NCBI GenBank assembly: GCA_023898605.1
Contig: CP060230.1
Span: 466,444-530,443, forward strand
Direction of reading: 5' to 3'
DNA from: Candidatus Nomurabacteria bacterium
Lineage (GTDB): Bacteria; Patescibacteriota; Minisyncoccia; Phycocordibacterales; UBA9973
Length of the DNA: 64,000 bases
Position numbers and translations under genes: made by a program. Shown piece by piece: positions 26,494-43,358 of the stretch (position 1 is its first letter; each line of letters opens with the position of its first letter). Below the pieces are notes generated by a model. It was not told the origin of the DNA, did not search any database, and saw nothing but the letters and a program-made list of their open reading frames with translations.

Positions 26494-26628
26494 ATGTCAG
26501 TAACATATCAACCAAAAAAGAGAAAAAGAGCAAAAACTCACGGATTTCTAACTAGAACTAAGACCTCTACTGGGAAAAAAGTACTACAAGCTAGAAGAAG
26601 AAAAGGTAGAGCAAAACTTGCTGTTTAG
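26494..26628 (+). CDS. rpmH: 50S ribosomal protein L34 (below the 60-aa ORF-track cutoff)
   Basis: Translates to [44 protein letters not shown], a near-canonical L34; immediately upstream of rnpA. Confidence 0.8.
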
Positions 26629-26630
26629 GC

Positions 26631-27183: not shown

Positions 27184-27221
27184 GTTTGATATATATAGAT
27201 ATTTTAATATAATATATCCCT

Positions 27222-27926: not shown

Positions 27927-27927
27927 T

Positions 27928-28407
27928 ATGGAAAAAATTATAGAACAAACAGCAAAAGAAATAGTAGAAAAAAGTGGACTAAAGCCAGTATCTGAGCAGT
28001 TTATTTATGATGAAGAAAGTAATACATATTGGTATTCTATCGAGGGATCTCTTGGTAATCAAAAGATAAAAGATCAAGAAATATTGAGCTCCCTGAACCA
28101 TCTTCTCAGAAGAATAATAGAAACAAAAATAACAAAAGAAAATACTAGTGGGCAGGAAATAAAAGTTCCTATGGCACTTTTTGACATAAACGGTGCCCAA
28201 AGAAAAAAGATAGAAAATCTAAAAACAATAGCTCATATGATGGCAGAAAGAGCGAGATATTTCAAAAGTAAAATAGCAGTTGATCCTATGTCGCCGTATG
28301 ACAGAAGGATAATACACGAATTTCTTTCTACTAAACCAGACATAAAAACAGAGTCTGACGGCGAGGGTAGATCAAGACATGTTGTAATTTACTACACAGG
28401 AAAGTAG
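27928..28407 (+). CDS. Jag/KhpB-like RNA-binding protein (KH + R3H domains)
   Basis: C-terminal R3H motif (YDRRIIHEFL...GEGRSRHVVIY); located after yidC as in spoIIIJ-jag operons. Confidence 0.7.
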   Translation: MEKIIEQTAKEIVEKSGLKPVSEQFIYDEESNTYWYSIEGSLGNQKIKDQEILSSLNHLLRRIIETKITKENTSGQEIKVPMALFDINGAQRKKIENLKTIAHMMAERARYFKSKIAVDPMSPYDRRIIHEFLSTKPDIKTESDGEGRSRHVVIYYTGK

Positions 28408-28417
28408 TAATATATTT

Positions 28418-29698
28418 CTATATTTTCAGAAGCCAGAGACTCTGGTCTTTTTTATTTATAAACAAAAGATTATTTTCTTCTTCGTTTAGTTTCAAATTAA
28501 CACCATCTATTTGCGAACCAGATGTTTTTGAAAGGTTTTCGTTTAATATGTAAAGTCCTGTGTTTATATCGAACTTCCAAATATTATCACTCCAAGAAAT
28601 TTGCCCTTTATACCAAGCGTCTGGATATATAGGACCCAAAGAAACATTTTGAGGAACAGAACACCATGCGACAGTGCTGTCTTTTGACCACACACATTTT
28701 TCCGGGAGAGTTTTTAGTCCTGTATTTGTTACGGTTCCGTTTTCGTTTACCACAGAAAGCTCTAGTTTGTTGTTGAAATATGTTGATATGAGTGCAAGTT
28801 TTCCGTTTTCACTAACAAGTGATGTTAGACCACTAACTCCACCTATTATTTTTTCCATAATCTTTGTATTCTCGTTTATTTTATATGAATACCCAGAAGC
28901 CAACCCAGAAGCCTTGCTTGTTATAGACACAGTACTTGTCCCAACAGCTAGAACTTGTCCCAACCACTCAGAAAAAGGAGAAGAGAACGATTGTTTTTGA
29001 TTTGTGCCGTCAAAATTACTAGAAATACCAACAGATTCAGTACCTATTTTATATATATAGAAATATTTTGAACCATCTTTTGATATAGAGAAACTAGATA
29101 TATTATCAACCAAAAACTCTCCTTCTAGTGAACCAGCTCCACCCTCTACTTCTGTAATTTTTCCGATATATGTTTTTATGTTTCCATTGTCATCTAGATA
29201 CCTAAGAGCTACATAGTCTTCGTGGCCTATATAAGCCTCATAGACGCGAGGAATTGTTGTTCCTGACACTCTTGTTGTTATGCCAGTAGAAAGGTCTAGA
29301 TCGTAAACGTGGCCCGTTTCTTGTTCTACAAACCTGACGAAATCTTTTGTTTCCAAAATAGTTGTTTCTAGTCCGTTTTCATCGAGTCCTAAAATAGCTT
29401 CTTCTTTTTGATAAAAACCAGCCCCAGCCACAGGTTTCGAATATATTTTTGTTAGATTTTGTATATTTATACTAGATGGTGATTCTTCCCCATTGTCTCC
29501 AGTTGTTGAGTCTGGCAACGTCCCCGTATTTTCTCCATTTTGACCATTTTGAGAGAAAGGAAAAATATTTCTTGTCGTGTCCACAAAAACCTCGTTTGGA
29601 GTTTTGCCCGTTTGCTCGCTTCTTAGTATCAAATACCCAACTCCAGAAAGGATCGCTATAAGTATTATTACAATGATTCTAAAAAATGTTTTATTCAT
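28418..29698 (-). CDS. membrane-anchored extracytoplasmic hypothetical protein (possibly beta-propeller-like); last gene of the VirB4 operon
   Basis: N-terminal TM IIVIILIAILSGVGYLIL; no motifs recognised; 2-bp gap to the upstream gene. Confidence 0.4.
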   Translation of the reverse strand: MNKTFFRIIVIILIAILSGVGYLILRSEQTGKTPNEVFVDTTRNIFPFSQNGQNGENTGTLPDSTTGDNGEESPSSINIQNLTKIYSKPVAGAGFYQKEEAILGLDENGLETTILETKDFVRFVEQETGHVYDLDLSTGITTRVSGTTIPRVYEAYIGHEDYVALRYLDDNGNIKTYIGKITEVEGGAGSLEGEFLVDNISSFSISKDGSKYFYIYKIGTESVGISSNFDGTNQKQSFSSPFSEWLGQVLAVGTSTVSITSKASGLASGYSYKINENTKIMEKIIGGVSGLTSLVSENGKLALISTYFNNKLELSVVNENGTVTNTGLKTLPEKCVWSKDSTVAWCSVPQNVSLGPIYPDAWYKGQISWSDNIWKFDINTGLYILNENLSKTSGSQIDGVNLKLNEEENNLLFINKKDQSLWLLKI

Positions 29699-29699
29699 A

Positions 29700-30686
29700 C
29701 TAAGATACTGGAATTATATGTTTTAAACAGTTCTTATATTTATAAGAGTCCAAAGGTCTGTTTATTGTTGTTGCGTTTCCGATTGACCCAGTTGGGCCAT
29801 GAACATCTGCTATTAACCCAGAACCCGTATATACAACAACGTGTCCACCTTCCGCCAAATCACACTCCTCAGCTTTCCAGCCCAAAAGATCTCCAGGCTG
29901 GAGTGTAATACCATTAACCATGGTACTTGTTATGGAGAATATTTCTGAAGAATAATCTTCGGTAAACATTGTTGCTGTCCTACCATTTCCTGTTGGTATA
30001 GGAGTAAGACCCGCACATTGTCTAACCATGTTTGCATAACTAGAACAATCCAAATATATAGTTCCAGCTGGGCCAGGCTGTGTTCTTTGAGTTTGATCGT
30101 ATGTTACATTTCCATAAAAACTATCTGCTATAGATTTTATATAAGAAGAACCACCGCCTTCCGGGCAATAAATATCTGTCGGTATAGCAATGTCGTCAAA
30201 AGCCAAAGTAAAACTTGCATTATCATCGCCGGCTATTTCAATCTCCACCTTGTTCAAGGAAAGTTTAAAGTCTACGAGGTCTGGATCTAGTGTGTTTAGT
30301 AAGACATACGCACCAAGCAAAACCCCGAGTCCCAATAGTGCGTTTTCTATCATGTTTCGCCCATCACTTTTTTTGGTGACCACCTCACTTCCCATATACT
30401 GGATACCACCTACTACTATCATCACAACAGCTAGCGCCCCAGCAATACCTATTATTATCCCAAGAACCCCATTGAAGTAGCTACCAAAACTAGTGTCCTC
30501 TCCATCGAACCTGGTTTCAAATCCTGGAAGTGGTTGTAAAAAACAATAGCCAGTATCACCGTCTTTACAAATTGTTTCTGCTTGAGTTTCAAATTCAGTC
30601 TGCGCTTTTGTTGATCCACCAAAAAACAAGGAAAAAATAACAAATATAGAACCCAGTGCTATTAATATGTTTCTTTTTGTTTTCAT
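29700..30686 (-). CDS. NlpC/P60-family cell-wall hydrolase fused to an N-terminal signal peptide plus hydrophobic segment (CwlT/PrgK-like T4SS-associated hydrolase)
   Basis: Signal peptide, hydrophobic GVLGIIIGIAGALAVVMIVVGG, C-terminal NlpC/P60 signature (LDCSSYANMV catalytic Cys, PGDLLGW, GHVVVYTG His). Confidence 0.6.
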   Translation of the reverse strand: MKTKRNILIALGSIFVIFSLFFGGSTKAQTEFETQAETICKDGDTGYCFLQPLPGFETRFDGEDTSFGSYFNGVLGIIIGIAGALAVVMIVVGGIQYMGSEVVTKKSDGRNMIENALLGLGVLLGAYVLLNTLDPDLVDFKLSLNKVEIEIAGDDNASFTLAFDDIAIPTDIYCPEGGGSSYIKSIADSFYGNVTYDQTQRTQPGPAGTIYLDCSSYANMVRQCAGLTPIPTGNGRTATMFTEDYSSEIFSITSTMVNGITLQPGDLLGWKAEECDLAEGGHVVVYTGSGLIADVHGPTGSIGNATTINRPLDSYKYKNCLKHIIPVS

Positions 30687-30689
30687 TTT

Positions 30690-31694
30690 CTAAAATTCTA
30701 TATTAAGAATACCACTTATTTTTTGGAAAACAGTGTTTGGGTTTGTAACAGATATCTCTACAGAAGAAGTTCCGCTAACCCCATCTGGTTTTTGTAGTGT
30801 GATTTGATTTCTGGTTCCAGAACTGTTTGCAGAAGAACCATTTATTTTCCAAGAAATATTATTTGAAGACCTAGATATGTTTTTGTAATTTGTGCTTATA
30901 AAATATGGTTCACCAACGATGTTTATTTCATCAGAGGTTAGATTTGTATTTGTTCCAAGGGCTTGATTATATAGAATACCCTTGAGCGGTTCATATTTAT
31001 AGAAAACAACCTCTGAAGAAGACGGTCTTATAGTTAACTCTTTTTGAGATGAAACTGAACCGTCTCTAGATGTTATTGTTACAGAAATCTTATCTTCTTT
31101 GTCTAGAAACGCGTTTTTGTATGTGTAAGAATTTTTTCCATAACCAGAATAATCTTGCATGTTGTTGTAGTTTTGCTTCCAGTTATATACAAGGTCTCCA
31201 GAGTTTATGTTTTGGCCAATAGTGTTTTTGAAGTGTGGTATTGCAACTATTCTAACAATCGCCTCTCTTCCAGGAAGGGCTTTTCCCCTATAAAACGGTG
31301 GTGTGTATGAATCTACCGCTTCCCACAATATGTCTACATCTTGTGGTGTTATAAAGATATTTCTTTCTACTGCTATACCATTTCCAGTTGTTATAACAAC
31401 TTTTATTTCTAGTGTTTGTCCAGCAGCTGGTGCTTTTGTACTAAAGCTTTTTCTTCCATATCCAGACAAGACAGTTTCTCCGCCGACTTGCCAAGAAATA
31501 TTTGCCCGGTTTAGATCAGTAGAAAAGCTAGTTAGATTTATTGTCACACTTTCTCCTGGAGCCGGGTTTTCTGGAACAGAGTCTATACCTATCGTTATTG
31601 TGTCTGCCGGGTTTACTGTTTGTGCAGAAGAAAAACCCCAAAAACCAAAAACAAGCATAAAAATAAAACTTATTTGCCCGAATACTTTCATCAT
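30690..31694 (-). CDS. secreted hypothetical protein (signal peptide) within the VirB4 operon
   Basis: MMKVFGQISFIFMLVFGFWGFSSAQT signal peptide; beta-rich, possibly Ig-like repeats; 3-bp gap to the downstream gene. Confidence 0.4.
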   Translation of the reverse strand: MMKVFGQISFIFMLVFGFWGFSSAQTVNPADTITIGIDSVPENPAPGESVTINLTSFSTDLNRANISWQVGGETVLSGYGRKSFSTKAPAAGQTLEIKVVITTGNGIAVERNIFITPQDVDILWEAVDSYTPPFYRGKALPGREAIVRIVAIPHFKNTIGQNINSGDLVYNWKQNYNNMQDYSGYGKNSYTYKNAFLDKEDKISVTITSRDGSVSSQKELTIRPSSSEVVFYKYEPLKGILYNQALGTNTNLTSDEINIVGEPYFISTNYKNISRSSNNISWKINGSSANSSGTRNQITLQKPDGVSGTSSVEISVTNPNTVFQKISGILNIEF

Positions 31695-33641: not shown

Positions 33642-34298
33642 ATGGCACAAATCGGGGCACCAACACAACAATTTGTCCCAATAAAAGAAATACGAGACGG
33701 TGTGGTTGTTTTGAAAGACGGCTCTCTTAGGGCGGTTCTTCTTGCTTCTTCTGTAAACCTTTCTTTGAAGTCTTATGATGAAGAGCAGGCTATAATAGGG
33801 CAATTTCAAGCTTTTTTGAACTCGCTAGACTTTTCTCTTCAGATAATAGTGCAATCTAGAAGATATGACGTAAGACCATATCTTTTATCTCTAGAAGAAA
33901 GGATGAGAGAACAGACAGAACCTCTACTCAAGGTTCAAACCAAAGAGTATATAGAATTTATACGTTCTTTTACAGAGCAAAATGCGATAATGAAGAAATA
34001 TTTCTACCTAGTTGTCCCTTATAACTCTGTTGTTTTAAATACAAAAGGTGCCGCCGGAAAACTAGAACAGTTTCTACCTTCTAGTCTCAAGGGCTCTGCT
34101 CCCAAAAAAGAAGGCGCTACTGAGTTTGAAGAAATGAAGTCTCAACTTGAACAAAGACTCACCGTTGTAGAAGAAGGAATGGCAAGAGTTGGTATAAGAT
34201 CTGCTAGGCTTGGAACAGAAGAGTTGATAGAAGTTTTCTACAAATGGTTCAATCCAGGAGATTCTGCACAAAGTGGTGTGGCAGATAATTTGGCATAA
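33642..34298 (+). CDS. hypothetical soluble protein divergent from the VirB4 gene; weak resemblance to VirB4 N-terminal-domain-like sequences
   Basis: 218 aa, no TM; DGSLRAVLL...FLNSLDFSLQIIVQS pattern; 2-bp gap to the following small membrane protein. Confidence 0.3.
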   Translation: MAQIGAPTQQFVPIKEIRDGVVVLKDGSLRAVLLASSVNLSLKSYDEEQAIIGQFQAFLNSLDFSLQIIVQSRRYDVRPYLLSLEERMREQTEPLLKVQTKEYIEFIRSFTEQNAIMKKYFYLVVPYNSVVLNTKGAAGKLEQFLPSSLKGSAPKKEGATEFEEMKSQLEQRLTVVEEGMARVGIRSARLGTEELIEVFYKWFNPGDSAQSGVADNLA

Positions 34299-34300
34299 TT

Positions 34301-34723
34301 ATGAATTTCAAAGTTCCACAATTTATAGAAGTTGAAGATAAGGTTTTTGGACCACTTACATTCAAGCAGTTTATATATCTTGCGGGTGGTGCAGGTCTCT
34401 GCTTTATATTGTGGAGACTCCTACCCCACTTTCTAGCTATTATATTTATAGCACCTGTTGCTGGTTTTGCTGCGGCGTTAACTTTCCTCAAAATAAATCA
34501 AAAGCCTTTTATCCAAATAGTTGAAGCGTTTTTGAATTATCAAATCGCATCTAAATTATATGTCTGGAAAAAAGAACCTAAAAAGATAAAGCCTAAAAAA
34601 GAAGAAGACATAATACCAAACACAGGATACCTCCCAAAAATGTCCGAGAGTAAGCTCAAAGACCTTGCTTGGAGCTTGGATGTTCTCGATTCCTCTACAC
34701 AAAACAAAGAATTAAAACAATAA
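34301..34723 (+). CDS. small 2-TM membrane protein, VirB3/PrgI-like candidate
   Basis: 140 aa, hairpin of two TM helices (FIYLAGGAGLCFILWRLL / LAIIFIAPVAGFAAALTFL) with a charged C-tail; location within the T4SS-like module. Confidence 0.35.
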   Translation: MNFKVPQFIEVEDKVFGPLTFKQFIYLAGGAGLCFILWRLLPHFLAIIFIAPVAGFAAALTFLKINQKPFIQIVEAFLNYQIASKLYVWKKEPKKIKPKKEEDIIPNTGYLPKMSESKLKDLAWSLDVLDSSTQNKELKQ

Positions 34724-34747
34724 AAATCCCGCTGAGTGCGGGATTTT

Positions 34748-35437
34748 TTATACTTCTTCTCTGTATGGATCCAAACCATGATATGAGCCGGTTTTTGGAG
34801 GCTTGATCTCTTTTCCGATACTTGGTAGAGATCTGTCGCTAACTTCTGTTCTCATGGTTGTCGGTGCAGAAAGTTTTTCTTTCAAAAAGCTTGGTTTTTC
34901 TTGTCCTCTGTCTGGTTCACCAGTAGGAAGTTTTATTTTAAGGTCGTCCTCTATCGATACTTCGTTTGGCTTCTCGTCTTCTGTTTTTTTAGTTTCTACT
35001 ACAGGACTACTTACTATCTCTGGTTCTTTTTTCTCGTATATCTCAACCCCTGATTTTTCTAAAACATTTTTTTCTTCTGGAGATATTTCTTCTTTGTCTT
35101 CTACCTCGTTCATGATTTCTGTTAGTTCTATCTCTCGCTCTCTTATAGGGTTAAATATGTTTGAGTTTAGGTTTTCTATGACAGACAAAACTTTGTCTTT
35201 TGGGATACCGTTTATGGCGTTTATTTCTACACGAAGTTCATCTGTTGATAGTAGTCCTACTGTTGCAAGATCCACCACGTCGAAAAGATCTTTTCCGGTA
35301 TCTAAGTGTAGCCCCTCTTTTTCTACAAGATCTTTTATTCTTTCTGGAACGTTTACATCCAAAACAGCCTCTTTTGTTGTAACGGGCAAGTTTTCAAATG
35401 CTTCTATTATTTGGTCTGGAGTGAATTTTTTGATCAT
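34748..35437 (-). CDS. hypothetical acidic soluble protein (last gene of the VirB6 operon)
   Basis: 229 aa, E/D/K-rich, no TM; 17-bp gap after the VirB6-like gene. Confidence 0.35.
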   Translation of the reverse strand: MIKKFTPDQIIEAFENLPVTTKEAVLDVNVPERIKDLVEKEGLHLDTGKDLFDVVDLATVGLLSTDELRVEINAINGIPKDKVLSVIENLNSNIFNPIREREIELTEIMNEVEDKEEISPEEKNVLEKSGVEIYEKKEPEIVSSPVVETKKTEDEKPNEVSIEDDLKIKLPTGEPDRGQEKPSFLKEKLSAPTTMRTEVSDRSLPSIGKEIKPPKTGSYHGLDPYREEV

Positions 35438-35454
35438 ATATTATAAATTATACA

Positions 35455-38400
35455 TTATTTTTTAGTCTCCCCACTAGATGGATTGGAACCACCACCCTCT
35501 TCTCGGTTTAATTTAGTGTCAACTTCTGCCAAGTCATTCTTATTTTTTTCGTAATCTTCTATTGTCTTGGCCTCTACTTCATGTTCTCCAATTTCTCTAT
35601 AAAGATCTCTTATTTCTCCATTAATTCTATCTTTTTCTGCGGTATCATTTGTCGCGTTGTGTTTTGCCCTAAGTAATTTAACCATATCTCTCTTTAGATC
35701 CATGTCGGCTTTTTTGTTTTGCTTTTCTACATTTAATATATAACTTCTTTTTTCTGCTTCATTTAATTCTCTACCTTTTCTTTCACCCTCTAATCTTACT
35801 AGTTCTGCCATCTTTTCACCTTCTTTCGTTGTTACGTCAAGAAGTTTTTTCAATGTTTCTTCTACTTTTCCTACTTTTTCTTGTAGTCTGTCGCGTTTTT
35901 CTTTCAACTTGTCTTTAGCACCCTTGGAACTCTCTTTCTTATCATATTTTTCTCCCACAGCCTTTGCTGCAGCAACTTCCGCCCTTCTGTCTAGACTTTG
36001 ACCACCAACTCCTTGAGGGTTTCTTAGTAACATATTTCCTGTTTTCTTCCAACCATCAGTACTCTTTCTTCTGTCTAGGTATTGATTTCGTAGGTCTTTG
36101 TTTAGATCATCTACATTGTCTTTTACAGAAACAGTTTTACCTCTTTGTTTTTCAAATTTTTCAACAGCATCTTTTTCTTCAAAATTAATTCTTTTGGCTA
36201 ATGACGCAAGTGCTAATGGATCACGGACTGTTTTTGTGTCTATATTTTGCCCTTTTTCTCTCGCAAGTTTTATTATTTGATCTTCTATAAATCTCTGCTT
36301 ATCTTTATTGTATTTTTCCAACTTCTTTTCTTGATAAAGAACACCTCTCTTCTTCTTGTTTCCATCTTTATCCGTTAGTTCTTCCTCGAACCAGTCTTTG
36401 CTCATCTTCCTAGACTCTATATGAGACTCCATTTCTTTGATCTTTGCTTTCTTCTTTCTCTTTTCAATTGCAGCTAGGCCACCCTTGCCGGCGTTTGAAC
36501 CGAAACCTATTCCCTTTTGATCGAAGTTTACACCAGCGCCAAGATTTTTACCTAGACTAGACTGCAATTTACCGCCGAGTCCAGTTTGTCTCAGGTCAAA
36601 ACTAGATTCTTTTGCAGCTTTACCAGTTTTTGTAATACCTGTACCGATTTGACGAGTGAAGAAGTTCTTGCTGTTTGCCCACTTCTTGGCAGTTTCACTT
36701 TCTCCTGCAGTTGCAGCAATTCTACCAGCAGTTGCCCGCAAACCAAATGCGGTTGCTCCAAGAGCTACACCACCAGCAACACCAAGAGCTGTTCCGACAA
36801 GTTTTGTTCCAGTTTCTACCACCTGTTTTCCAAATTTTCCTGACATATCTATGGTTATATCCCGAGCTTGTTTTAGAAGTGCTATCACAATCAAGAACTG
36901 GAGTGCTATCGAAAGCATAAGTTCGTAGAAGTTAAGATTTTCTGATTTTACTAGTCCCCCTATAAAGTCACTGTTTATGAAAAGTATTATTAGATACAAG
37001 AAGAACAAAAATAGTGGCGCCAAAAACGTTAACCTTACAAGACTATAAGACCACTTTTTCATACCAAACTCTCCACTTGCAATAGATCCTTGGTCCAGAG
37101 CTTTGCTTAGAAAGGCAAACGGAGAAGCAATCATCATGACCCAGAGACCAACAATTCTACCCAAGAAAACCATCGCAACTTTTATGAAAATAAATATAAG
37201 TGTGATATTTAGTATTATTCCAAAAATTATAATTATTGCGGGAACAGCCCAAGTAGAAGCTCCTCCAAAATCCCCCTGCCTCAAAGCAGAAACCGTTTCT
37301 CTTGAAAATATTGTTTGAATTTTTGTTCCCTGTACAACACCGGCAGAAAGAGACTTTGTCTGACCTATACTGTCAGTAGAAGTTACGGTATTTATGGGAT
37401 CGCCGGTAATTGATATTTGGTTATAGAATATTTTTGCGAGAACATTACCCGCATCTATTACTACTTGTGTGAAGAATAAACTGAAGTTTATAAGTAGTCC
37501 AAATATTATTACATTTACTATTACTTTTCTGACATTTGTTCTTCCCCCCAGTATTGTAGATATTCCAGCCCAAACCAGAGTGAGTATAAAACCTATGTTT
37601 GCAAAGTTTTTTATTATTCTCCATCCTTCCTGTACAAAGCTCGGGTCTTTGTATATATAACTTGATATTGAGAAAGATAGAAACGCATCAAAAAATGATC
37701 CAACAACATAAAGAAGTGTTGCTGACGGCATATATACAACATAATAAAGGGTTATTATGATACAAGATTGAAAATTACTTTCCTTTCCACCAAGAGCCGC
37801 CGTTCCAAAACCACAGTCTAGTCCAGAAAGTATTATGTTTCTATCGTTTTGTTCAAAAGAGGATGTTTCATATATATAACTGTCTTCAGAGAGCGGCGCA
37901 GCTTCTCCGGCCGGAGTCACAAATGTTTTAAGTGGACCAAAACCAACTCTTTGGTCTGTTCCAGAAAGACCAGCGTCTTCTACTATAACAAGCTGCGCAT
38001 AATATGGTTTTCCTGGTTCTAAGTTTGGAACTGTAAATACAAAACTATTTATATTTGTTATTTCTGTTGCATCTATGGCGCCGACGGTTAACTGTGAAAA
38101 CGTAGGAGAAATGGGTATTACTCTTTGATTTTTCGACGCCTCGTAAGTATCTTCAGTTGGAATATTTGCTATTTCAAAGTTTTTATAATTATCCCAACCA
38201 GCTTCTCCCATTTCTGACAAAAGAACAAATTCTGGCGTTGTTTCAAAATTAATTTCTCCACCTCCCGCAAAACCTAATTCTCCTAGTGTTCCTCCTGTCC
38301 ACGGACAATCATCCAGTTCTTCTGAGTTTTCAAAAAAACAATCAATAGTTTGAATCGTAGTTGGTATATATCCATCTCCGGTACCAGGAGCACTATTTAC

Positions 38401-38937
38401 AAGTTTTTTTGAGTCATCTGTATTTCCAAGGTTTACCGGGGATCCTTCTGCTTCAAAATAATTATAAAGAGTTGTTTTGCTTTGTGATACAACTAAAAAT
38501 ATTCCGTTTTTTCTACCCAAAAAACCTCCACCATATCTTGTTTCCCACTTGTCATCTGCCCCACTAACAAACAGCGAATCCCATCCATGATAATCACCGA
38601 AGCCAGTAGGGACTCCTGCTGTTGCATTTACAACCGCACCCGGAGTAGAGTCATTCGAGAAGCCCAAAGAAAATTCAAAAAGTGCTGAACTTGGCTGAAC
38701 ATTTGAAACACTCAAGTTAGTGTTTCTTACTGGGTATATGTTTATAAAATTACTTAATACTTTCCAGTTATCAAATGTCCCATAATCTCCAAGAATACTA
38801 GGATCTCCCCAAAAAACGTCTTCCATTTCCCATGTTGACGCAGAAGCCTTATTCAAAGGAAAAAGCACCAAAATAGAAAAGGTAAAGGCAAAAAGCAGAA
38901 TATTTCTTATTGAAGAATTTCTGAAAATACTTGGCAT
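35455..38937 (-). CDS. giant VirB6/TrbL-like polytopic membrane protein with large N-terminal extracytoplasmic domain and roughly 440-aa charged/coiled-coil C-terminal tail
   Basis: Signal peptide; roughly 390-aa exo-domain; at least 7 TM helices between residues about 390-720; Gly-rich segment; K/E-rich heptad-like tail (KRKKKAKIKEMESHIESRK...). Confidence 0.55.
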   Translation of the reverse strand: MPSIFRNSSIRNILLFAFTFSILVLFPLNKASASTWEMEDVFWGDPSILGDYGTFDNWKVLSNFINIYPVRNTNLSVSNVQPSSALFEFSLGFSNDSTPGAVVNATAGVPTGFGDYHGWDSLFVSGADDKWETRYGGGFLGRKNGIFLVVSQSKTTLYNYFEAEGSPVNLGNTDDSKKLVNSAPGTGDGYIPTTIQTIDCFFENSEELDDCPWTGGTLGELGFAGGGEINFETTPEFVLLSEMGEAGWDNYKNFEIANIPTEDTYEASKNQRVIPISPTFSQLTVGAIDATEITNINSFVFTVPNLEPGKPYYAQLVIVEDAGLSGTDQRVGFGPLKTFVTPAGEAAPLSEDSYIYETSSFEQNDRNIILSGLDCGFGTAALGGKESNFQSCIIITLYYVVYMPSATLLYVVGSFFDAFLSFSISSYIYKDPSFVQEGWRIIKNFANIGFILTLVWAGISTILGGRTNVRKVIVNVIIFGLLINFSLFFTQVVIDAGNVLAKIFYNQISITGDPINTVTSTDSIGQTKSLSAGVVQGTKIQTIFSRETVSALRQGDFGGASTWAVPAIIIIFGIILNITLIFIFIKVAMVFLGRIVGLWVMMIASPFAFLSKALDQGSIASGEFGMKKWSYSLVRLTFLAPLFLFFLYLIILFINSDFIGGLVKSENLNFYELMLSIALQFLIVIALLKQARDITIDMSGKFGKQVVETGTKLVGTALGVAGGVALGATAFGLRATAGRIAATAGESETAKKWANSKNFFTRQIGTGITKTGKAAKESSFDLRQTGLGGKLQSSLGKNLGAGVNFDQKGIGFGSNAGKGGLAAIEKRKKKAKIKEMESHIESRKMSKDWFEEELTDKDGNKKKRGVLYQEKKLEKYNKDKQRFIEDQIIKLAREKGQNIDTKTVRDPLALASLAKRINFEEKDAVEKFEKQRGKTVSVKDNVDDLNKDLRNQYLDRRKSTDGWKKTGNMLLRNPQGVGGQSLDRRAEVAAAKAVGEKYDKKESSKGAKDKLKEKRDRLQEKVGKVEETLKKLLDVTTKEGEKMAELVRLEGERKGRELNEAEKRSYILNVEKQNKKADMDLKRDMVKLLRAKHNATNDTAEKDRINGEIRDLYREIGEHEVEAKTIEDYEKNKNDLAEVDTKLNREEGGGSNPSSGETKK

Positions 38938-39007: not shown

Positions 39008-42000
39008 CTAGTATCCGTAATCTGGATTTTCGTAAGAGTTAATCCAGGGATTTATAAGAACTGGTCCCCAATAATTTTCATCTCCAAGCTGTGCCCCAAG
39101 TTTTGCCCCATACGCACGTGCCTCAAAGCTCAGGTGGTATTGCCATATGTTTTGAGCAATATCGTTTATACCACCATCTATTACTATAGGTTCTGATCCA
39201 GATGTTGGGTCATATATTTGATAGAAGCCCCAAGGATTGTAAGGAGGGTTTCTAAATGGATAGTATATAGAGTATGGATTTGCAGATACGTCTAGTGGGT
39301 ATAGTGATTTTGTATCGTATAGATATATTCTCCAAATATTATTTTTTACATTATCTATAGTATTTCCCACGCCTTTTGATTGAAGGTTTGCATAAGAACA
39401 TATACTACTTGCAGAAGACCCATCTGGCATAACTGTTGTTCTCATATTTATTCCGTCTGGATAGCATTGTCTTACAACTTGGTATAGCGAATCATATACC
39501 CAGCTATCGCTGGCTATGCTTATAGAATAATCTGTATCCATATAATTTCTAAGAAGGTGACTTTTTACATCTCCTGCTATCGCGCCTATGTCTGGATTTT
39601 CTATATAGTTCACGCACCCCCAATTTCCCCAACCACAAGTTTTTATTTCACTTTCTATTTTTGGAATTATATCGCCAGTAGATTCTAGGTCTACTTGAGC
39701 ATAAGAAAGATCTGTCTTGAGTGAAGTTATAACGTCGTCTGTTACCAGAAACGGCTGAGCAAATGAATATATGTACTGTAGTCTTTCTAGTGCAGTCTGA
39801 TTCTCGGCAGTGTTTTGTTGTGCGTAAGGTATTTTGTCTAATTCATCGGCTATGTACTGGAGTCTATACAAGTTTGAAACTTGTTCGATGTATTTTGATC
39901 TGTATTCTTCTAGAAGATCTTTATAAGCAGGTATTTTTTGAGTTTGGGCTCTTCCAAGAGATGCACTTGGTAGGTTGAAGTTGTCTATATCGTATTGGAT
40001 ACGAGACATCTCGTTTTGGTATACAAGATCTATGCTATTCAAAAGGTTTCTTCTTTTTTCCTCTATATTACACTCCCAACAGAATCCGAGTGCGTGTGAT
40101 ATTCCTGCGACAACTCCAGAAAGAGGTAGTGCATAAAGTGCATTTACTATATCAAGGACTGTTTCATCTGCTGTCATGATTTCTTCTCTTTGTGTTAGGT
40201 ATTGATCAGTCACCCTCGCTTGCCAACCTTGGTCTGGTTCCGGCATAACTTTGTCTAGTTGTTGGAGTTTTGGTAGTAGAACTAACTGTATATAGTCTAT
40301 GTTTTGCTTCAAGATTTCTATATACTCTTCTGTTACAGCAATGTCAGTTCTACAAGGAGCATCGCTTGAGAAATCTATTGTCCCAGAAAGTGATCCTCTT
40401 GGTCCAAATAGTTCTGTTGTTAGTGCTCCTGCCCCTCCAAAAATTATTCCACCACCTTCTATCCCTATACCATCGTCAAATATTCCTCCTCCAACATCTA
40501 CTCCTCCGCCGACTCCGTCAAGGCCAGATTCGATAACATCTCCTGTGTCGGGATCAGCTATCCCGCCAGCGAGTATATCATCTAGGCTTATAGTTGTTAT
40601 GTCTCCGGTTCCTATTACACCACCGCCAAAGAGGTTTCTTCCACCAATGTCTGCCCCAGATATTATATTTCCATACTTTACACACTGAAGTTTATAGTAT
40701 AGGTCTACGGGGGAGAATGGGTCTTGATACCAAGTGCTTCCCTCACCGTTTAGGTAGTATGAAGTGTTTACACCATAACCACCTGTCTGGTCTGTTGTAA
40801 CAGACGCAGTTGTAAGAGATGTGACACCTTGGTATATAAGTTGTTGCATAAGCGCATCGAAAATAGCCCCCAGAGATTCGTTTAGTTCGTCTGCGAGTTC
40901 TAGTTGTTTTACAGATGATCCAAGAGATATGTTTAGTTGATCTGCGAGTACACCTCCTGGTGTTGTTGTTTCGTATCTCGTACAGTTGTCAACCTCTCCC
41001 GCCCAAGCATATTCGTAGTTTCCATCAAGCAAGTTTGAACCTCCTCCGCCCAGTAGCGGGTTACTGCTAACAGCTAGTCCTTCAGGGAGGCCCTCGGCTG
41101 TGTTTGTTGTTTCGGCGGTATTTCCACTTACAGCCGTTGTATAGGTTACACCTCCAACCGTTTGTTTGTACTCAACACATTTTCTCAAGTTTAGAAAACC
41201 ATTATTTTGTAGAAGCTCATCTTTTATACTACTTTGTTTTTGTTCTATTCTCTTATTTATTTCTTGAGAAGCTAGAAAGTTAAATCCGATAGGAGAGTTT
41301 GCTGGGTTTTGTGTCATGGCAAGCCAGCCGTTCCACCCGCCAACAGAGAAGTCTGTAGCAAAGTCTTCCCAGTTTTCTCCTATATCGTCTGCAAGTGTAA
41401 ATACTGCGGTGCTTTCGAAATCTTGACCATCATATATTGCCGCCAAACTCGCACCAATTTCTGCGCCGAACGGATACTTCACAGGGTCATTGAGTTCTGA
41501 AACGAATGCATAAACCTCTTGATCAGCAAGAGTTTTCAAGAAAGATATAGGTTCGCTTAGAAAAAGAGGGTTTCCCTCGAAACCTGTGTTTATCCAGTTT
41601 ACCGTATCTCTTGTTATGGCTGCCAAGACGCTTTTCGCAGCAGCATAACCTATGGCGTCAAGACACTTTTCTTTTTGTGTGTATTCCCTACTTATTTTAA
41701 TTGATTCAGCATCCTTAACAGGAACAAACTGAAGTGATGCATTTGTTGTACCAACTGCCTTGTCAAAAATATTATTTAATGCACCACTTATTTTACTATC
41801 TGTCCCAGTGCAGCCAAGTAGTGCTAAACCGACACCGGAAGCTATTGGGGAGTTTTGATCATAATATAAACTACCTTGATTAGATGAAGGCTGGTTATAC
41901 TGTGCCCTTGCAACAGAAACCGGACCCAAAATGTATGCAAAAACAAAAGATAGATTCAAAAAAATAGAAACAAATAATTTTATGTTTTTATTGAGTTTTT

Positions 42001-42019
42001 TTGATTTTGGGGTAGGCAT
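39008..42019 (-). CDS. large (1003 aa) secreted/membrane-anchored protein of unknown function with Gly/Asp-rich segment
   Basis: N-terminal TM/signal (FVSIFLNLSFVFAYILGPVSVARA); GGIADPDTGDVIESGLDGVGGGVDVGGGIFDDGIGIEGGG segment; many Trp/Tyr; 9-bp gap to the upstream gene. Confidence 0.45.
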   Translation of the reverse strand: MPTPKSKKLNKNIKLFVSIFLNLSFVFAYILGPVSVARAQYNQPSSNQGSLYYDQNSPIASGVGLALLGCTGTDSKISGALNNIFDKAVGTTNASLQFVPVKDAESIKISREYTQKEKCLDAIGYAAAKSVLAAITRDTVNWINTGFEGNPLFLSEPISFLKTLADQEVYAFVSELNDPVKYPFGAEIGASLAAIYDGQDFESTAVFTLADDIGENWEDFATDFSVGGWNGWLAMTQNPANSPIGFNFLASQEINKRIEQKQSSIKDELLQNNGFLNLRKCVEYKQTVGGVTYTTAVSGNTAETTNTAEGLPEGLAVSSNPLLGGGGSNLLDGNYEYAWAGEVDNCTRYETTTPGGVLADQLNISLGSSVKQLELADELNESLGAIFDALMQQLIYQGVTSLTTASVTTDQTGGYGVNTSYYLNGEGSTWYQDPFSPVDLYYKLQCVKYGNIISGADIGGRNLFGGGVIGTGDITTISLDDILAGGIADPDTGDVIESGLDGVGGGVDVGGGIFDDGIGIEGGGIIFGGAGALTTELFGPRGSLSGTIDFSSDAPCRTDIAVTEEYIEILKQNIDYIQLVLLPKLQQLDKVMPEPDQGWQARVTDQYLTQREEIMTADETVLDIVNALYALPLSGVVAGISHALGFCWECNIEEKRRNLLNSIDLVYQNEMSRIQYDIDNFNLPSASLGRAQTQKIPAYKDLLEEYRSKYIEQVSNLYRLQYIADELDKIPYAQQNTAENQTALERLQYIYSFAQPFLVTDDVITSLKTDLSYAQVDLESTGDIIPKIESEIKTCGWGNWGCVNYIENPDIGAIAGDVKSHLLRNYMDTDYSISIASDSWVYDSLYQVVRQCYPDGINMRTTVMPDGSSASSICSYANLQSKGVGNTIDNVKNNIWRIYLYDTKSLYPLDVSANPYSIYYPFRNPPYNPWGFYQIYDPTSGSEPIVIDGGINDIAQNIWQYHLSFEARAYGAKLGAQLGDENYWGPVLINPWINSYENPDYGY

Positions 42020-42028
42020 TTTTTATCA

Positions 42029-42976
42029 CTAAATTATACCATAAGAAGAAAAGTAGCTTGTAATTTTATCAAGGGCACTTTCCCCAGATTCTTGTGAGGC
42101 CCTGTATGTTGCAAGACCTCTTGTTCCGAGAACTGGGTCTATCCAAAGGTTTAGTAGATCTATAAGGCCACGCTTGCTTCCAGAAATTGCGTTTAAGAAA
42201 GCTAAATGATATTCGCTTGCCGTTCTAGGCACGTTTATTTTCTTTAGCTCTTCTTCTACGTGTGTGTAAGACTCTATTGCCCCCTGTATCCCAATAAGAG
42301 ATGCTTTATCTCCACCATCTATTCCCACAAAGTTTCCCAAGTATGAAACTTCATCTCCTAGAAGTAGCGCTTGATCACTCGCATATATTGCAGCTAGTTT
42401 GTTGTAGTAGCTCAAAACCTCTGCCTCAGAACTACCTACAATATTTATATCGTCTAAACTATAAGTTGCAGCGTATGTTGTTTCGAAAAATGATTCGCTC
42501 ATAGTCAGGGCGAGATTATTTACAGCTTCACTCGTTAGAACGCCCGCTTCTTGTAGGGAAATAAGTGTTGCAAAGTATTCTCTGGCAAAGATTTCTGTTT
42601 GTGTGTCTGCTGTGTCAGCCGAAGCGCCTGTTTTTTCTCGAAGTTCTGCCCTTTTTTGTTCTATATATACGCCATCTGTTTGTCCGTCTCCATCTGTATC
42701 TTTGCTATCTGGGTTTGTGCCCCATAAGTATTCCTCCCAGTCTTGTACACCATCCCCATCTGTATCTACATATGCAAGGTCACTAACCAAAACTTGTTTT
42801 AAGTCTCTTTTGGCTATTTTTTTCTTTATATCATTTTCGGTCGGTTTTTTGAGAAGTTCTTTGCCCACAAAAAACAAAACTATACATCCACAAACAATAC
42901 TCACTTTTATAAGTAGTTTTTTACTGGGCATGTATGGTGCAACACTTTTTATTTTTTGTTTTATTTTTTTGAACAT
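42029..42976 (-). CDS. membrane-anchored protein with thrombospondin-type-3-like calcium-binding repeats (DTDGDG)
   Basis: N-terminal TM; DTDGDGVQDWEE...DTDGDGQTDG and DGDGVQDWEEYLWGTNPD motifs; 315 aa. Confidence 0.45.
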   Translation of the reverse strand: MFKKIKQKIKSVAPYMPSKKLLIKVSIVCGCIVLFFVGKELLKKPTENDIKKKIAKRDLKQVLVSDLAYVDTDGDGVQDWEEYLWGTNPDSKDTDGDGQTDGVYIEQKRAELREKTGASADTADTQTEIFAREYFATLISLQEAGVLTSEAVNNLALTMSESFFETTYAATYSLDDINIVGSSEAEVLSYYNKLAAIYASDQALLLGDEVSYLGNFVGIDGGDKASLIGIQGAIESYTHVEEELKKINVPRTASEYHLAFLNAISGSKRGLIDLLNLWIDPVLGTRGLATYRASQESGESALDKITSYFSSYGII

Positions 42977-42977
42977 T

Positions 42978-43358
42978 TTATTTTGGGAGTGAAGATCCGG
43001 ATGAGCCTATTAGGCTTATTGGGAATGTTAGATACGGAGTCGCCGTTTCTACCTGTATACACCCTGGCGCCGTACTAAGAGTTCTTCTGTATAGACCCAA
43101 AACATAAGATCCAGTCCTTATGCTTTGAAGCCCGCCTGTTCCTGGGATTATTCCATAAGGAGTTGACGGCATTGTTATAGATGCAGGAGCTATTGTTAGT
43201 GGGCTTGTTAGATTAGGGCATTCGACAACCCCTGACATGCCAGTCATAAGAACTTTTCCACCAAATCCAACCGGTTGAAGAAAGGCATTTGTACTATAGA
43301 CGAGACCAAACATTAAAAACAAGCTGAAAATAGCTAGAAATATTTTTACTTTTTTCAT
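42978..43358 (-). CDS. small secreted protein (signal peptide), Gly/Pro/Thr-rich; first gene of the module
   Basis: MKKVKIFLAIFSLFLMFGLVYSTNAF signal peptide; 126 aa; 1-bp gap to the next gene. Confidence 0.4.
   Translation of the reverse strand: MKKVKIFLAIFSLFLMFGLVYSTNAFLQPVGFGGKVLMTGMSGVVECPNLTSPLTIAPASITMPSTPYGIIPGTGGLQSIRTGSYVLGLYRRTLSTAPGCIQVETATPYLTFPISLIGSSGSSLPK

What the first reader, a model, noticed from the sequence alone, without database searches (positions are those of the whole stretch)
35455..38937. Giant VirB6-like membrane protein with a roughly 440-aa K/E-rich coiled-coil-like cytoplasmic tail
The protein has a signal peptide, a roughly 390-aa extracytoplasmic domain and at least 7 TM helices. 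It then carries a Gly-rich linker and a long tail of heptad-like charged repeats (KRKKKAKIKEMESHIESRK..., EKQNKKADMDLKRDMVKLLRAKH...) ending in GGGSNPSSGETKK. Canonical VirB6/TrbL proteins are about 300-400 aa. Giant VirB6-like proteins with added domains are known in a few obligate symbionts (established for Rickettsiales). The tail here could act as a cytoplasmic scaffold or stalk.
Basis: partly seen in the sequence, partly recalled or inferred. Interest (0 to 1): 0.55.

Follow-up and report, generated by a model that had tools for sequence, protein, structure and literature searches.

The report
Extended VirB6 subunit of a Patescibacteria T4SS
This is a real 1160-residue gene for the VirB6-like central subunit of the chromosomal type IV secretion system of a Nomurabacteria (CPR) bacterium; its long charged tail is standard for thousands of relatives in that group, and which side of the membrane the tail sits on is still open.

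Summary
The ORF (35455-38937, minus strand, 1160 aa) is intact and built as described. It has an N-terminal signal/anchor segment, an acidic 357-aa ectodomain, a block of six hydrophobic helices, a Gly/Ala/Arg-rich segment and a 335-aa K/E-rich helical tail.

It is a VirB6/TrbL-type protein. The family core profile hits only TrwI/VirB6 in the PDB (E 2.6e-5). The AlphaFold core's best Foldseek match is TrwI. Two relatives pass Pfam TrbL. The gene lies between PrgI/VirB3, TrsD, VirB4 and pilin-like genes, next to dnaA-rnpA-yidC, the layout published for Patescibacteria T4SSs in 2025.

The size is not exceptional. Of 75 complete relatives from species genomes (522-1257 aa, median 835), 20 reach 1000 aa. 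All 135 new representatives carry a distal tail of at least 148 aa.

Only the Gly/Ala/Arg-rich segment, which TrwI shares, is conserved. The distal tail is unique in sequence and about 78% helical, with no significant heptad periodicity, no repeats and no fold match.

"Cytoplasmic" is unproven. Composition and classical VirB6 topology favour inside. C-terminal cell-surface Ig domains in a Sungbacteria subfamily, the R388 structure and surface-exposed Anaplasma extensions favour outside.

This is a new member of the known "extended VirB6" kind, of moderate interest.

The parts
35455..38937 (-). Whole ORF, 1160 aa plus stop codon: extended VirB6/TrbL-like T4SS subunit
   Evidence: ORF list and translation. 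100% identical to P0001, a Candidatus Nomurabacteria MAG protein.
38839..38937 (-). aa 1-33: N-terminal signal peptide or signal anchor (R6, R11, hydrophobic 7-33, ...NKASAS/T)
   Evidence: Hydropathy. Nearly all family members have one N-terminal hydrophobic segment ahead of a variable region. Cleavage is inferred from the sequence only.
37768..38838 (-). aa 34-390: lineage-specific acidic ectodomain (net charge -32, 4.8% K+R)
   Evidence: Composition. AlphaFold pLDDT is about 30 apart from a beta-hairpin at 311-340. There is no standalone homolog. Only aa ~250-390 is shared with a few close relatives.
36802..37767 (-). aa 391-712: conserved VirB6 core. Hydrophobic helices A (391-421), B (445-462), C (473-500), the 60-aa loop 501-562, D/E (563-612, with invariant R594), F (634-657) and G (673-692).
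   Evidence: pLDDT above 90. Foldseek top hit is TrwI/VirB6, 8rt9_F, probability 0.98. hhalign aligns q567-731 to TrwI 142-296, E 4.2e-5. Invariant or near-invariant residues are W439, R443, D444, N447, N484, F485, R594, P606, W629 and P641. The B-C loop is conserved and basic.
36463..36801 (-). aa 713-825: conserved Gly/Ala/Arg-rich module (G.A.G.A.GG.A..GR.T.GR ... FD.R ... G), the last conserved part of the family
   Evidence: Tail realignment of 119 members. Aligns to the Gly/Ala/Arg-rich C-terminus of TrwI. G738 and R783 are near-invariant. pLDDT is 84-90 at aa 740-777.
35458..36462 (-). aa 826-1160: distal K/E-rich helical tail (25.7% K+R, 20.9% D+E, net charge +16), unique in sequence
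   Evidence: No conservation beyond aa ~825. No standalone homolog among 301 family proteins. Tail-only AlphaFold model: pLDDT 71, pTM 0.29, 78% helix. No fold match, best E 2.1. No DNA repeats.
34748..35437 (-). 229-aa acidic soluble protein (net charge -20) encoded 17 nt downstream, last gene of the operon
   Evidence: A soluble acidic ORF follows the VirB6-like gene in 70 of 73 related loci. Weak N-terminal homology to the L001 counterpart, E 1.5e-8.
34722..34748 (.). Bidirectional terminator-like hairpin (11-bp stem) between the convergent operons
34301..34723 (+). PrgI / VirB3-like membrane protein (140 aa)
   Evidence: Pfam PrgI, E 3.7e-11, above the curated cut-off.
33642..34298 (+). 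TrsD-like protein (218 aa), homologous to the VirB4 N-terminal domain
   Evidence: NCBIfam VirB4_plasma N-terminal region E 8.7e-10 and TrsD E 9.5e-6, both far below their curated cut-offs (37 bits against 590, 25.6 against 200). Its counterparts in L001-L003 are annotated PF26593 TraC-like. TrsD is described for Patescibacteria in PMC12102498.
31730..33568 (-). VirB4-type ATPase (612 aa; the N-terminal domain is supplied separately by TrsD)
   Evidence: NCBIfam conju_CD1110, E 7.4e-110, above cut-off. Pfam P-loop_TraG, E 5.3e-27.
28418..31694 (-). Three exported or membrane proteins downstream of VirB4 (334, 328 and 426 aa). The 328-aa one (29700-30686) has a VirB2/T4SS_pilin-like segment.
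   Evidence: Pfam T4SS_pilin, E 2.1e-5, 25.0 bits against a 26.6-bit cut-off, so just below threshold. N-terminal hydrophobic segments.
39008..43358 (-). Three exported proteins upstream in the same operon: 126 aa, 315 aa (with a TSP3-type repeat) and 1003 aa (Gly-rich). All are conserved in synteny.
   Evidence: The same order is seen in L001-L003 and L006.

Best explanation
The gene encodes the VirB6-like subunit of the chromosomal, origin-proximal, monoderm-type (MPF-FATA-related) type IV secretion system of a Nomurabacteria (Patescibacteria) cell. It has the 'extended VirB6' architecture.

Shown here:
- Homology of the core (aa ~430-830) to TrbL/VirB6.
- Linkage to the PrgI/VirB3, TrsD, VirB4 and pilin-like genes.
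- Presence of a long charged tail throughout the family.

Inferred by homology with R388 TrwI and with Gram-positive PrgH:
- Five copies form the central platform or protochannel, on which the VirB2-like pilins encoded nearby assemble and through which substrate passes.
- Helices B and C (aa 445-500, joined by a conserved basic loop) are the membrane legs, equivalent to TrwI alpha1/alpha2.
- The other hydrophobic helices build the dome.

The C-terminal region has two parts. The first is a conserved Gly/Ala/Arg-rich module that canonical VirB6 also has. The second is a fast-evolving, about 78% helical polyampholyte of 150-500 aa (335 aa here) that is kept for its length and composition, not its sequence.

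My working mechanism for this distal tail: it projects from the pentamer as five flexible helical arms on the outer face. There it acts as a spacer or collar through the cell wall, in a system where VirB5, VirB8 and VirB10 homologs have not been detected or are rare. In some lineages it carries a tip domain (Ig).

Sub-confidences: VirB6 identity about 0.9; the tail being a family-wide trait about 0.95; tail outside the cytoplasm about 0.55.
For: Identity
- The core-only family profile (A2) finds TrwI/VirB6 as the only PDB sequence with E <= 1 (E 2.6e-5). The full-length profile also ranks TrwI first.
- hhalign against TrwI gives E 4.2e-5, probability 69.6%.
- The AlphaFold core has pLDDT above 90. 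Its best Foldseek PDB hits are TrwI/VirB6 chains, with probability 0.98 and 0.96 and TM-score 0.40-0.45 on the target. DotA is second.
- Family members P0106 and P0108 pass the Pfam TrbL gathering score.

Context
- PrgI, TrsD, VirB4 and a pilin-like gene are adjacent.
- dnaA, rnpA, yidC and jag lie next to the cluster.
- The same gene order occurs in L001-L003 and L006.
- This matches the published description (PMC12102498).

Family-wide tail
- Median of 364 aa after the last hydrophobic helix in 120 homologs.
- 135 of 135 new cluster representatives have a distal tail of at least 148 aa, with median 20% K+R and 18% D+E.
- 75 complete ORFs span 522-1257 aa.
- The family holds 24,554 clusters at E <= 1e-3.

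Tail outside
- Seven members of a Sungbacteria subfamily match the same core profile (E 1e-43 to 1e-53). Each ends its tail in a He_PIG Ig domain, with no hydrophobic segment in between.
- Other proteins found through that domain carry signal peptides.
- In R388 only alpha1 and alpha2 of VirB6 cross the membrane.
- The C-terminal extensions of Anaplasma VirB6-3/-4 are surface exposed, and the F and SXT TraG C-domains act in mating-pair formation and entry exclusion.
- Pilins assemble on VirB6 pentamers in Gram-positive systems.
Against: - The query itself has no Pfam or NCBIfam hit. The PDB and hhalign statistics are moderate, and the TM-score to TrwI is only 0.40-0.45.
- Against an outside tail: its 25.7% K+R lies far outside the 5-10% seen in seven signal-peptide proteins of this window and in the protein's own ectodomain. 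It resembles the K-rich end of the cytoplasmic proteins.
- The segment just after the last hydrophobic helix is strongly basic (mean 11.8 K/R in about 66 aa).
- Reporter-fusion studies put the C-terminus of A. tumefaciens, Brucella and H. pylori VirB6 homologs in the cytoplasm (as cited in PMC7648143).
- Gly-zipper-like hydrophobic segments in 17 of 135 tails are flanked by K/R on both sides.
- The Ig-tipped tails belong to a different subfamily with less charged tails.
- No topology predictor and no multimer model could be run.
Confidence: 0.5

Rival explanations
1. Same VirB6-like identity, but the tail is cytoplasmic. After the last hydrophobic helix or the Gly/Ala segment the chain is inside the cell. 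There the five basic, helical tails form a scaffold under the membrane. They would contact VirB4/TrsD, the conserved acidic soluble protein encoded just downstream, or an anionic substrate such as nucleic acid.
For: - The tail's K+R (25.7%) matches cytoplasmic rather than exported proteins of this genome: 15 +/- 3.8% against 5-10%.
- The juxtamembrane module is conserved and basic, and is shared with TrwI.
- Classical topology maps of VirB6 homologs put the C-terminus in the cytoplasm.
- K/R flanks both sides of the late Gly-zipper segments.
- An acidic, signal-less ORF follows the gene in 70 of 73 loci, and 96% of these are net negative.
- TcpH of pCW3 has an analogous 400-aa K/E/N-rich C-terminal region.
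Against: - He_PIG cell-surface Ig domains sit at the tail end in seven relatives, with no intervening hydrophobic segment.
- The R388 structure puts everything after alpha2 outside the membrane.
- The C-terminal extensions of Anaplasma VirB6-3/-4 are experimentally surface exposed.
- There is no charge covariation between the tail and the downstream acidic protein (rho -0.15, p 0.21).
- By inference, about 250 kDa of tail mass would have to fit at the centre, above the VirB4 hexamer.
Confidence: 0.4
2. The distal tail has no specific role. It is a tolerated, drifting low-complexity extension of the conserved VirB6 C-terminus in AT-rich, K-rich genomes.
For: - No sequence conservation beyond aa ~825.
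- No standalone homologs.
- No fold match and pTM 0.29.
- Composition typical of a low-GC genome (36% GC).
Against: - A distal tail of at least 148 aa is present in 135 of 135 new representatives, and a long tail was seen in almost all of the 120 first homologs (the few apparent exceptions carry a late hydrophobic segment). These come from genomes under strong reduction.
- Length and charge composition are maintained.
- Some lineages add a folded Ig domain or a Gly-zipper segment at a fixed place.
Confidence: 0.08
3. The long ORF is an assembly or annotation artefact that fuses a VirB6 gene with a separate downstream gene.
For: None found.
Against: - A single frame with no stop (one search gives the + strand reading only; searches give the ORF).
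- The identical protein is on 4 contigs.
- Core and tail are contiguous in 75 complete ORFs from other genomes and in all 135 new representatives.
Confidence: 0.01

Closest known systems
TrwI (VirB6) of plasmid R388, and the Pfam TrbL/VirB6 family PF04610
   Same: - Homologous core. TrwI is the only PDB sequence hit of the family profile and the best fold match.
- The order of elements is the same: two N-proximal helices joined by a basic loop, a long hydrophilic loop, three hydrophobic helices, then a Gly/Ala/Arg-rich C-terminus.
- The gene is linked to VirB3 and VirB4.
   Different: - TrwI is 342 aa and ends about 70 aa after the last helix.
- This protein adds a signal/anchor segment plus a 357-aa ectodomain and an extra hydrophobic helix (A) at the N-terminus, and 335 aa of charged helices at the C-terminus.
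- The query itself does not reach any Pfam threshold.
Patescibacteria T4SS (Quinonero-Coronel et al. 2025, PMC12102498; essential in Southlakia epibionticum per Wang et al. 2023, as cited there)
   Same: The same system: VirB4 of the Patescibacteria clade with TrsD, PrgI/VirB3, VirB6 and VirB2-like genes, chromosomal and next to dnaA.
   Different: - That survey found VirB6 homologs for only 480 proteins and suggests extreme divergence.
- Its main text has no occurrence of 'tail' or 'coiled', and its one 'C-terminal' mention concerns VirB1, not VirB6.
- Here TrsD and PrgI lie on the opposite strand and in swapped order compared with three related loci.
'Extended VirB6' proteins: Rickettsiales VirB6 paralogs (Anaplasma VirB6-3/-4), F-plasmid TraG, and the MPF-FA Gram-positive homologs of 700-900 aa such as TcpH of pCW3
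   Same: - A polytopic VirB6-type region plus large hydrophilic N- or C-terminal regions whose role is unknown (PMC12857230; PMC7648143).
- TcpH has a hydrophobic block to about aa 431 followed by 400 aa rich in K, E and N.
   Different: - No detectable sequence relation to TcpH (hhalign probability 3.6%).
- The Anaplasma extensions are tandem repeats, and none are present here.
- The Patescibacteria VirB4 is reported to share ancestry with MPF-FATA, whose VirB6 proteins are about 300 aa. The extension here is therefore an independent or lineage-specific elaboration.
TolA domain II, ATP synthase subunit b, SMC coiled coils (long charged helices)
   Same: K/E/A-rich helical composition. These are the weak, compositional PDB hits of the tail part of the full-length profile (E 0.05-1).
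   Different: No homology and no significant heptad pattern. The tail-only model has no fold match.

Membership tests
VirB6 / TrbL (PF04610) T4SS subunit | Sequence or profile similarity to TrbL/VirB6 | tested here: met
   The query alone has no Pfam hit. The evidence comes from the family:
- The family core profile hits only TrwI in the PDB, E 2.6e-5.
- hhalign gives E 4.2e-5, probability 69.6%.
- Relatives P0106 (27.4 bits) and P0108 (31.3 bits) exceed the 25.9-bit gathering score over profile positions 22-212 of 215. They are homologous to the query at E 1.8e-12 and 5.9e-11.
VirB6 / TrbL (PF04610) T4SS subunit | Polytopic protein with five or more hydrophobic alpha-helices | tested here: met
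   Hydropathy. AlphaFold helices with pLDDT above 90. No dedicated topology predictor was available.
VirB6 / TrbL (PF04610) T4SS subunit | Fold similar to a solved VirB6 | tested here: met
VirB6 / TrbL (PF04610) T4SS subunit | Encoded with VirB4 and VirB3 homologs | tested here: met
   VirB4 lies 1.9 kb away and PrgI 0.7 kb away. The same linkage is seen in L001-L003.
VirB6 / TrbL (PF04610) T4SS subunit | Forms a pentamer at the centre of the machine and seats the VirB2 pilins | not testable with these tools
   No multimer prediction was available. Inferred from R388 and from Gram-positive PrgH models.
Extended-VirB6 subtype | VirB6 hydrophobic core plus one or more large hydrophilic domains | tested here: met
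   A 357-aa N-terminal and a roughly 430-aa C-terminal hydrophilic region. The definition is taken from PMC12857230.
Coiled-coil protein (for the tail) | Sustained heptad periodicity of hydrophobic residues | tested here: not met
   - P(3.5) over aa 801-1150 gives p = 0.13 against shuffles.
- Only aa ~1007-1038 reaches 6 of 8 a/d positions, and 6% of shuffles do as well.
- The helices are amphipathic, with 22-32% hydrophobic residues.
- No COILS or DeepCoil run was possible.
VirB5-like or alpha-pore-forming helical tip (for the tail) | Fold similarity to VirB5/TraC/CagL or to ClyA-type bundles | tested here: not met
   The tail-only AlphaFold model (pLDDT 71, pTM 0.29) has no Foldseek PDB hit better than E 2.1, and none of the hits is a VirB5.
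TcpH-type (MPF-FA) VirB6 homologs | Sequence relation to TcpH of pCW3 | tested here: not met
   hhalign probability 3.6%. Only the architecture is analogous.

The most novel reading that the evidence does not exclude
The long tail is an extracellular device. Five helical arms would extend up to tens of nanometres from the VirB6 pentamer, through the wall and S-layer of an ultrasmall epibiont. They would stand in for VirB5, VirB8 and VirB10, which have not been detected or are rare in these systems, and would touch the host cell. Lineage-specific tips (an Ig domain in Sungbacteria, Gly-zipper membrane-active segments in others) and fast sequence turnover would be driven by host specificity. If so, the tail is part of how the T4SS, shown to be essential in one cultivated Patescibacterium, engages its host.
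Probability: 0.2. Interest if true: 0.7.

Novelty: new member of a known kind. Interest (0 to 1): 0.35.

Why it matters
The T4SS is the first secretion system shown to be essential for a Patescibacterium's epibiotic growth, and what it moves is unknown (PMC12857230). VirB6 sits at its centre. Reviews state that the role of extended-VirB6 appendages is not known.

This family is very large: 24,554 clusters at 50% identity. It has a constant architecture and a freely evolving tail. That offers a natural comparative data set, plus a sensitive core profile that detects members which Pfam misses.

The practical gain is modest:
- It files one 'hypothetical protein' correctly.
- It shows that the tail is a clade-wide trait rather than a curiosity.
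- It turns 'cytoplasmic scaffold' into an explicit, testable question of inside versus outside.

Tried and rejected
1. Fusion or frameshift artefact. Rejected: the architecture is contiguous in many independent genomes.
2. Tail made of repeats. Tandem Repeats Finder finds none.
3. Regular coiled coil or single alpha-helix. Heptad periodicity is not significant. E-to-K i+3/i+4 pairs give only z = 1.85. The helices are 22-32% hydrophobic, too much for a single alpha-helix domain.
4. Tail as a built-in VirB5-like or ClyA-like tip. The tail-only model has no fold match.
5. Homology to TcpH of pCW3. None.
6. Recognisable domains in the tails of 30 further relatives. Only He_PIG (Sungbacteria subfamily), plus compositional DUF1090 and phage-scaffold hits.
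7. Charge covariation between the tail and the conserved downstream acidic protein. None (rho -0.15, p 0.21).
8. Homologs of the ectodomain.
   - The large-database search returned nothing, not even the identical parent protein, so its sensitivity is doubtful.
   - A local phmmer search against 301 family proteins found only self.
9. A 'split VirB4 artefact'. Rejected: the 218-aa N-terminal-domain protein is the TrsD component known in these systems.
11. The higher-GC stretch at 12-16 kb is not rRNA. Rfam finds only two tRNAs in the window.

Full report
**Observation**

The coordinates hold a single open reading frame on the minus strand (35455-38937, 1160 aa). The plus-strand reading is full of stops.

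- A hydrophobic N-terminal segment at aa 7-33, preceded by R6 and R11 and followed by NKASAS/T.
- A hydrophilic, acidic region at aa 34-390 (17 K+R, 49 D+E).
- A block of hydrophobic helices at aa 391-692.
- A Gly/Ala segment at aa 713-731.
- A charged C-terminal region, with 86 K+R and 70 D+E in aa 826-1160.

AlphaFold2 with a 120-sequence alignment predicts aa 390-715 at pLDDT above 90, as six long helices. The ectodomain is at pLDDT about 30. The tail is helical with patchy confidence.

The ORF is not a fusion artefact:
- An identical protein is on record from a Candidatus Nomurabacteria MAG.
- Relatives of 1134 and 1159 aa align from the end of the ectodomain to near the C-terminus.
- 75 complete ORFs from species-representative genomes have the same layout.

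The 'heptad-like repeats' do not hold up:
- Periodicity at 3.5 residues over aa 801-1150 is not above shuffles (p = 0.13).
- Only aa ~1007-1038 looks like a heptad run, and 6% of shuffles match that.
- There is no DNA repeat.

**Identity**

The query has no Pfam or NCBIfam hit. Four independent lines still make it a VirB6/TrbL protein.

1. A profile of the family core (alignment A2, query aa 432-800) finds TrwI, the VirB6 of plasmid R388, as the only PDB sequence with E <= 1 (E 2.6e-5). The full-length profile also ranks TrwI first (E 0.0017). hhalign against TrwI fetched from R388 gives E 4.2e-5 and probability 69.6%, aligning q567-731 to TrwI 142-296.
2. The best Foldseek PDB matches of the model are TrwI/VirB6 chains (probability 0.98 and 0.96, target TM-score 0.40-0.45). 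DotA is second.
3. Relatives P0106 and P0108, homologous to the query at E ~1e-11 to 1e-12, pass the Pfam TrbL gathering score over nearly the whole model.
4. Gene context, detailed in the next section.

**Gene context**

The neighbouring genes are:
- PrgI/VirB3 at 34301-34723.
- A TrsD-like VirB4 N-domain protein at 33642-34298.
- A VirB4 ATPase at 31730-33568 (conju_CD1110, E 7e-110).
- A protein with a just-sub-threshold T4SS_pilin segment at 29700-30686.

The cluster abuts dnaA, rnpA, yidC and jag (24980-28407). On the other side lie rsmA, uvrD and a LysM-M23 peptidase.

Three distant relatives show the same order: LysM-M23, UvrD, RsmA, two exported proteins, VirB6-like, a small soluble protein, PrgI, TrsD, VirB4, small membrane proteins, then YidC.

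This is the Patescibacteria T4SS described in 2025. That paper reports a VirB4 clade sharing ancestry with MPF-FATA, accompanied by TrsD, PrgI, VirB6 and VirB2-like genes, often near dnaA and usually without a relaxase (PMC12102498).

**How unusual it is**

It is not unusual within its clade.
- The 120 first homologs are 653-1181 aa. The median stretch after the last hydrophobic helix is 364 aa, with 17% K+R and 14% D+E.
- An exhaustive profile search finds 24,554 clusters (50% identity) at E <= 1e-3 and 11,216 at E <= 1e-30.
- All 135 new representatives among the best 150 have at least 148 aa beyond the conserved region. The median is 283 aa, with 20% K+R and 18% D+E.
- In species-representative genomes, more than 520 encode a relative. 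The best 80 whose titles name a taxon are all Patescibacteria lineages (Nomurabacteria, Paceibacterota, Wolfebacteria, Yonathbacteria, assemblies labelled Saccharibacteria; several titles say only 'uncultured bacterium').
- 75 complete ORFs span 522-1257 aa with a median of 835, and 20 reach 1000 aa or more.
- What varies most is the N-terminal insert between the signal/anchor segment and helix A, from 10 to more than 400 aa.

**Anatomy of the C-terminal region**

Realigning 119 tails shows conservation only up to about aa 825. The conserved part is a Gly/Ala/Arg-rich module (G.A.G.A.GG.A..GR.T.GR ... FD.R ... G) with near-invariant G738 and R783. This module aligns with the Gly/Ala/Arg-rich C-terminus of TrwI.

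The distal 335 aa differ:
- They have no standalone homolog, even among 301 family proteins.
- Folded alone they give pLDDT 71, pTM 0.29 and 78% helix, including three helices of 36-52 residues.
- They have no fold match (best E 2.1).

Length and charge are therefore kept across the family while sequence is not.

**Topology**

Family-averaged loop charges are as follows:

| Segment (query aa) | Mean net charge |
|---|---|
| Before helix A (371-390) | -0.4 |
| A-B loop (422-444) | -0.5 |
| B-C loop (463-472) | +1.2 |
| 60-aa loop (501-562) | -0.9 |
| Turn at invariant R594 (591-596) | +1.0 |
| E-F loop (613-633) | +0.8 |
| F-G loop (658-672) | -0.6 |
| After helix G (693-713) | +1.2 |

TrwI shows the same pattern around its alpha1 and alpha2. 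In the R388 cryo-EM structure these are the only VirB6 helices that cross the membrane. The other predicted TM segments build the periplasmic base of the stalk. Residues 273-342 were not built into the model (PMC9259494).

I therefore equate helices B and C with alpha1 and alpha2. The universal N-terminal hydrophobic segment then reads as the export signal for an N-out start. 'At least 7 TM helices' counts hydrophobic helices, not proven spans.

**Which side the tail is on**

Evidence for the inside:
- Seven signal-peptide proteins in this window have 5-10% K+R. Thirty-five proteins without hydrophobic segments have 15 +/- 3.8%. The tail has 25.7%, and the protein's own ectodomain 4.8%.
- The juxtamembrane module is strongly basic.
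- Reporter fusions place the C-terminus of A. tumefaciens, Brucella and H. pylori VirB6 homologs in the cytoplasm (cited in PMC7648143).
- Late Gly-zipper-like segments in 17 of 135 tails have basic flanks on both sides.

Evidence for the outside:
- A Sungbacteria subfamily matches the same core profile at E 1e-43 to 1e-53 and shares the upstream synteny.
- Seven of its members end the tail in a He_PIG Ig domain. Four are above the Pfam gathering score, and no hydrophobic segment lies in between.
- Unrelated proteins retrieved through that domain are signal-peptide surface proteins.
- The C-terminal extensions of Anaplasma VirB6-3/-4 are trypsin-accessible on intact cells.
- The C-terminal domains of F and SXT TraG act in mating-pair formation and entry exclusion.
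- The R388 structure leaves everything after alpha2 outside.

I could not run a topology predictor or a multimer model. I rate outside at about 0.55 and inside at about 0.45.

**Mechanism**

Shown here: homology, linkage, and the family-wide architecture.

Inferred from R388 and from recent Gram-positive work: five copies form the central platform or protochannel above the VirB4 hexamer. VirB2-like pilins are recruited at the membrane helices and assemble on top, and substrate passes through.

For the distal tail I commit, with low confidence, to five flexible helical arms. Fully helical, 335 aa is about 50 nm. The arms would serve as a wall-spanning spacer or collar, and in some lineages as a tip carrier. 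VirB8 homologs are rare in these systems, and VirB5 and VirB10 were not found among the neighbours here.

The main rival is a cytoplasmic basic scaffold. A possible partner is the acidic soluble protein encoded 17 nt downstream. Such an ORF follows the gene in 70 of 73 loci, but I found no charge covariation (rho -0.15, p 0.21).

**Comparison and novelty**

The 'extended VirB6' subtype is established, and its appendages are explicitly of unknown function (PMC12857230). Examples:
- Rickettsiales paralogs, up to 9,935 aa and repeat-based.
- F TraG.
- MPF-FA homologs of 700-900 aa. TcpH of pCW3 has an analogous K/E/N-rich 400-aa C-terminus but no detectable homology.

Patescibacteria VirB6 homologs are also published. 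The main text of that survey has no occurrence of 'tail' or 'coiled', and its one 'C-terminal' mention concerns VirB1. It detected only 480 of them.

The finding is therefore a new member of a known kind, with three small additions:
- The tail is a clade-wide trait.
- Only the Gly/Ala/Arg module is conserved.
- Ig-tipped variants question the cytoplasmic assignment.

Interest 0.35.

Noticed in passing
window 33642-34723 (+), compared with L001 14048-15104, L002 10784-11905 and L003 10705-11741: Here TrsD and PrgI lie on the strand opposite to VirB4 and VirB6, in the order TrsD then PrgI. In three related loci the order is PrgI then TrsD, on the same strand as VirB4. A simple inversion would not keep PrgI next to the VirB6 side, so the rearrangement is more complex.
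   Followed up: partly
window 34722-34748: A strong bidirectional terminator-like hairpin (11-bp stem, AAAAATCCCGC...GCGGGATTTTT) sits exactly between the convergent ends of prgI (+) and the 229-aa gene (-).
   Followed up: no
window 34748-35437 (-); related loci L007-L086: A small acidic protein with no signal peptide and no hydrophobic segment follows the VirB6-like gene in 70 of 73 related loci, and 96% of these are net negative (mean -12.6). Here it is 229 aa with net charge -20. No family match, function unknown. It is a possible T4SS component that the published surveys do not name.
   Followed up: partly
window 39008-43358 (-); L001, L002, L003, L006: Three exported proteins precede the VirB6-like gene in the same operon, in conserved order: 126 aa, 315 aa with a TSP3-type calcium-binding repeat, and 1003 aa that is Gly-rich. 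None has a family assignment. They are candidates for the unidentified cell-wall part of this T4SS.
   Followed up: partly
P0115, P0133, P0137, P0145, P0150, P0143, P0148 (Sungbacteria-type relatives); locus L006: Seven VirB6-like relatives end in a He_PIG (PF05345) Ig-like domain after a Pro/Gly-rich linker, at the extreme C-terminus of the tail. I found no mention of a VirB6 with a cell-surface Ig tip in the papers I read.
   Followed up: yes
P0008, P0027, P0050, P0099, P0012, P0037, and 17 of the 135 new representatives: Some tails carry a 30-35-residue Gly/Ala-rich hydrophobic (glycine-zipper-like) segment 110-290 aa into the distal tail. It has basic residues on both sides and is followed by another charged stretch.
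   Followed up: partly
window 24980-28407: dnaA (-), rnpA, yidC and jag/R3H (+) lie immediately next to the T4SS cluster. The window therefore spans the replication-origin region, and the T4SS sits at the origin, as reported for many Patescibacteria.
   Followed up: yes
window 31730-33568 (-) and 33642-34298 (+): The VirB4 ATPase (612 aa) matches the reference models from about position 183 onward, so it lacks the N-terminal domain. That domain is encoded separately as TrsD. A reader could mistake this for a broken gene.
   Followed up: yes
window 12001-16000: G+C rises to 0.42-0.45 against about 0.36 elsewhere. The stretch holds a 736-aa surface protein (fn3/PhoD_N/DUF11 hits, C-terminal hydrophobic segment) and a 612-aa ORF with no family hit and low K+R. 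It is not rRNA: Rfam finds only two tRNAs in the window.
   Followed up: partly
(query window:37768-38838:-): The large-database homolog search with the ectodomain alone returned no hit at all, not even the identical parent protein found. That null result says little about whether the ectodomain has relatives.
   Followed up: partly
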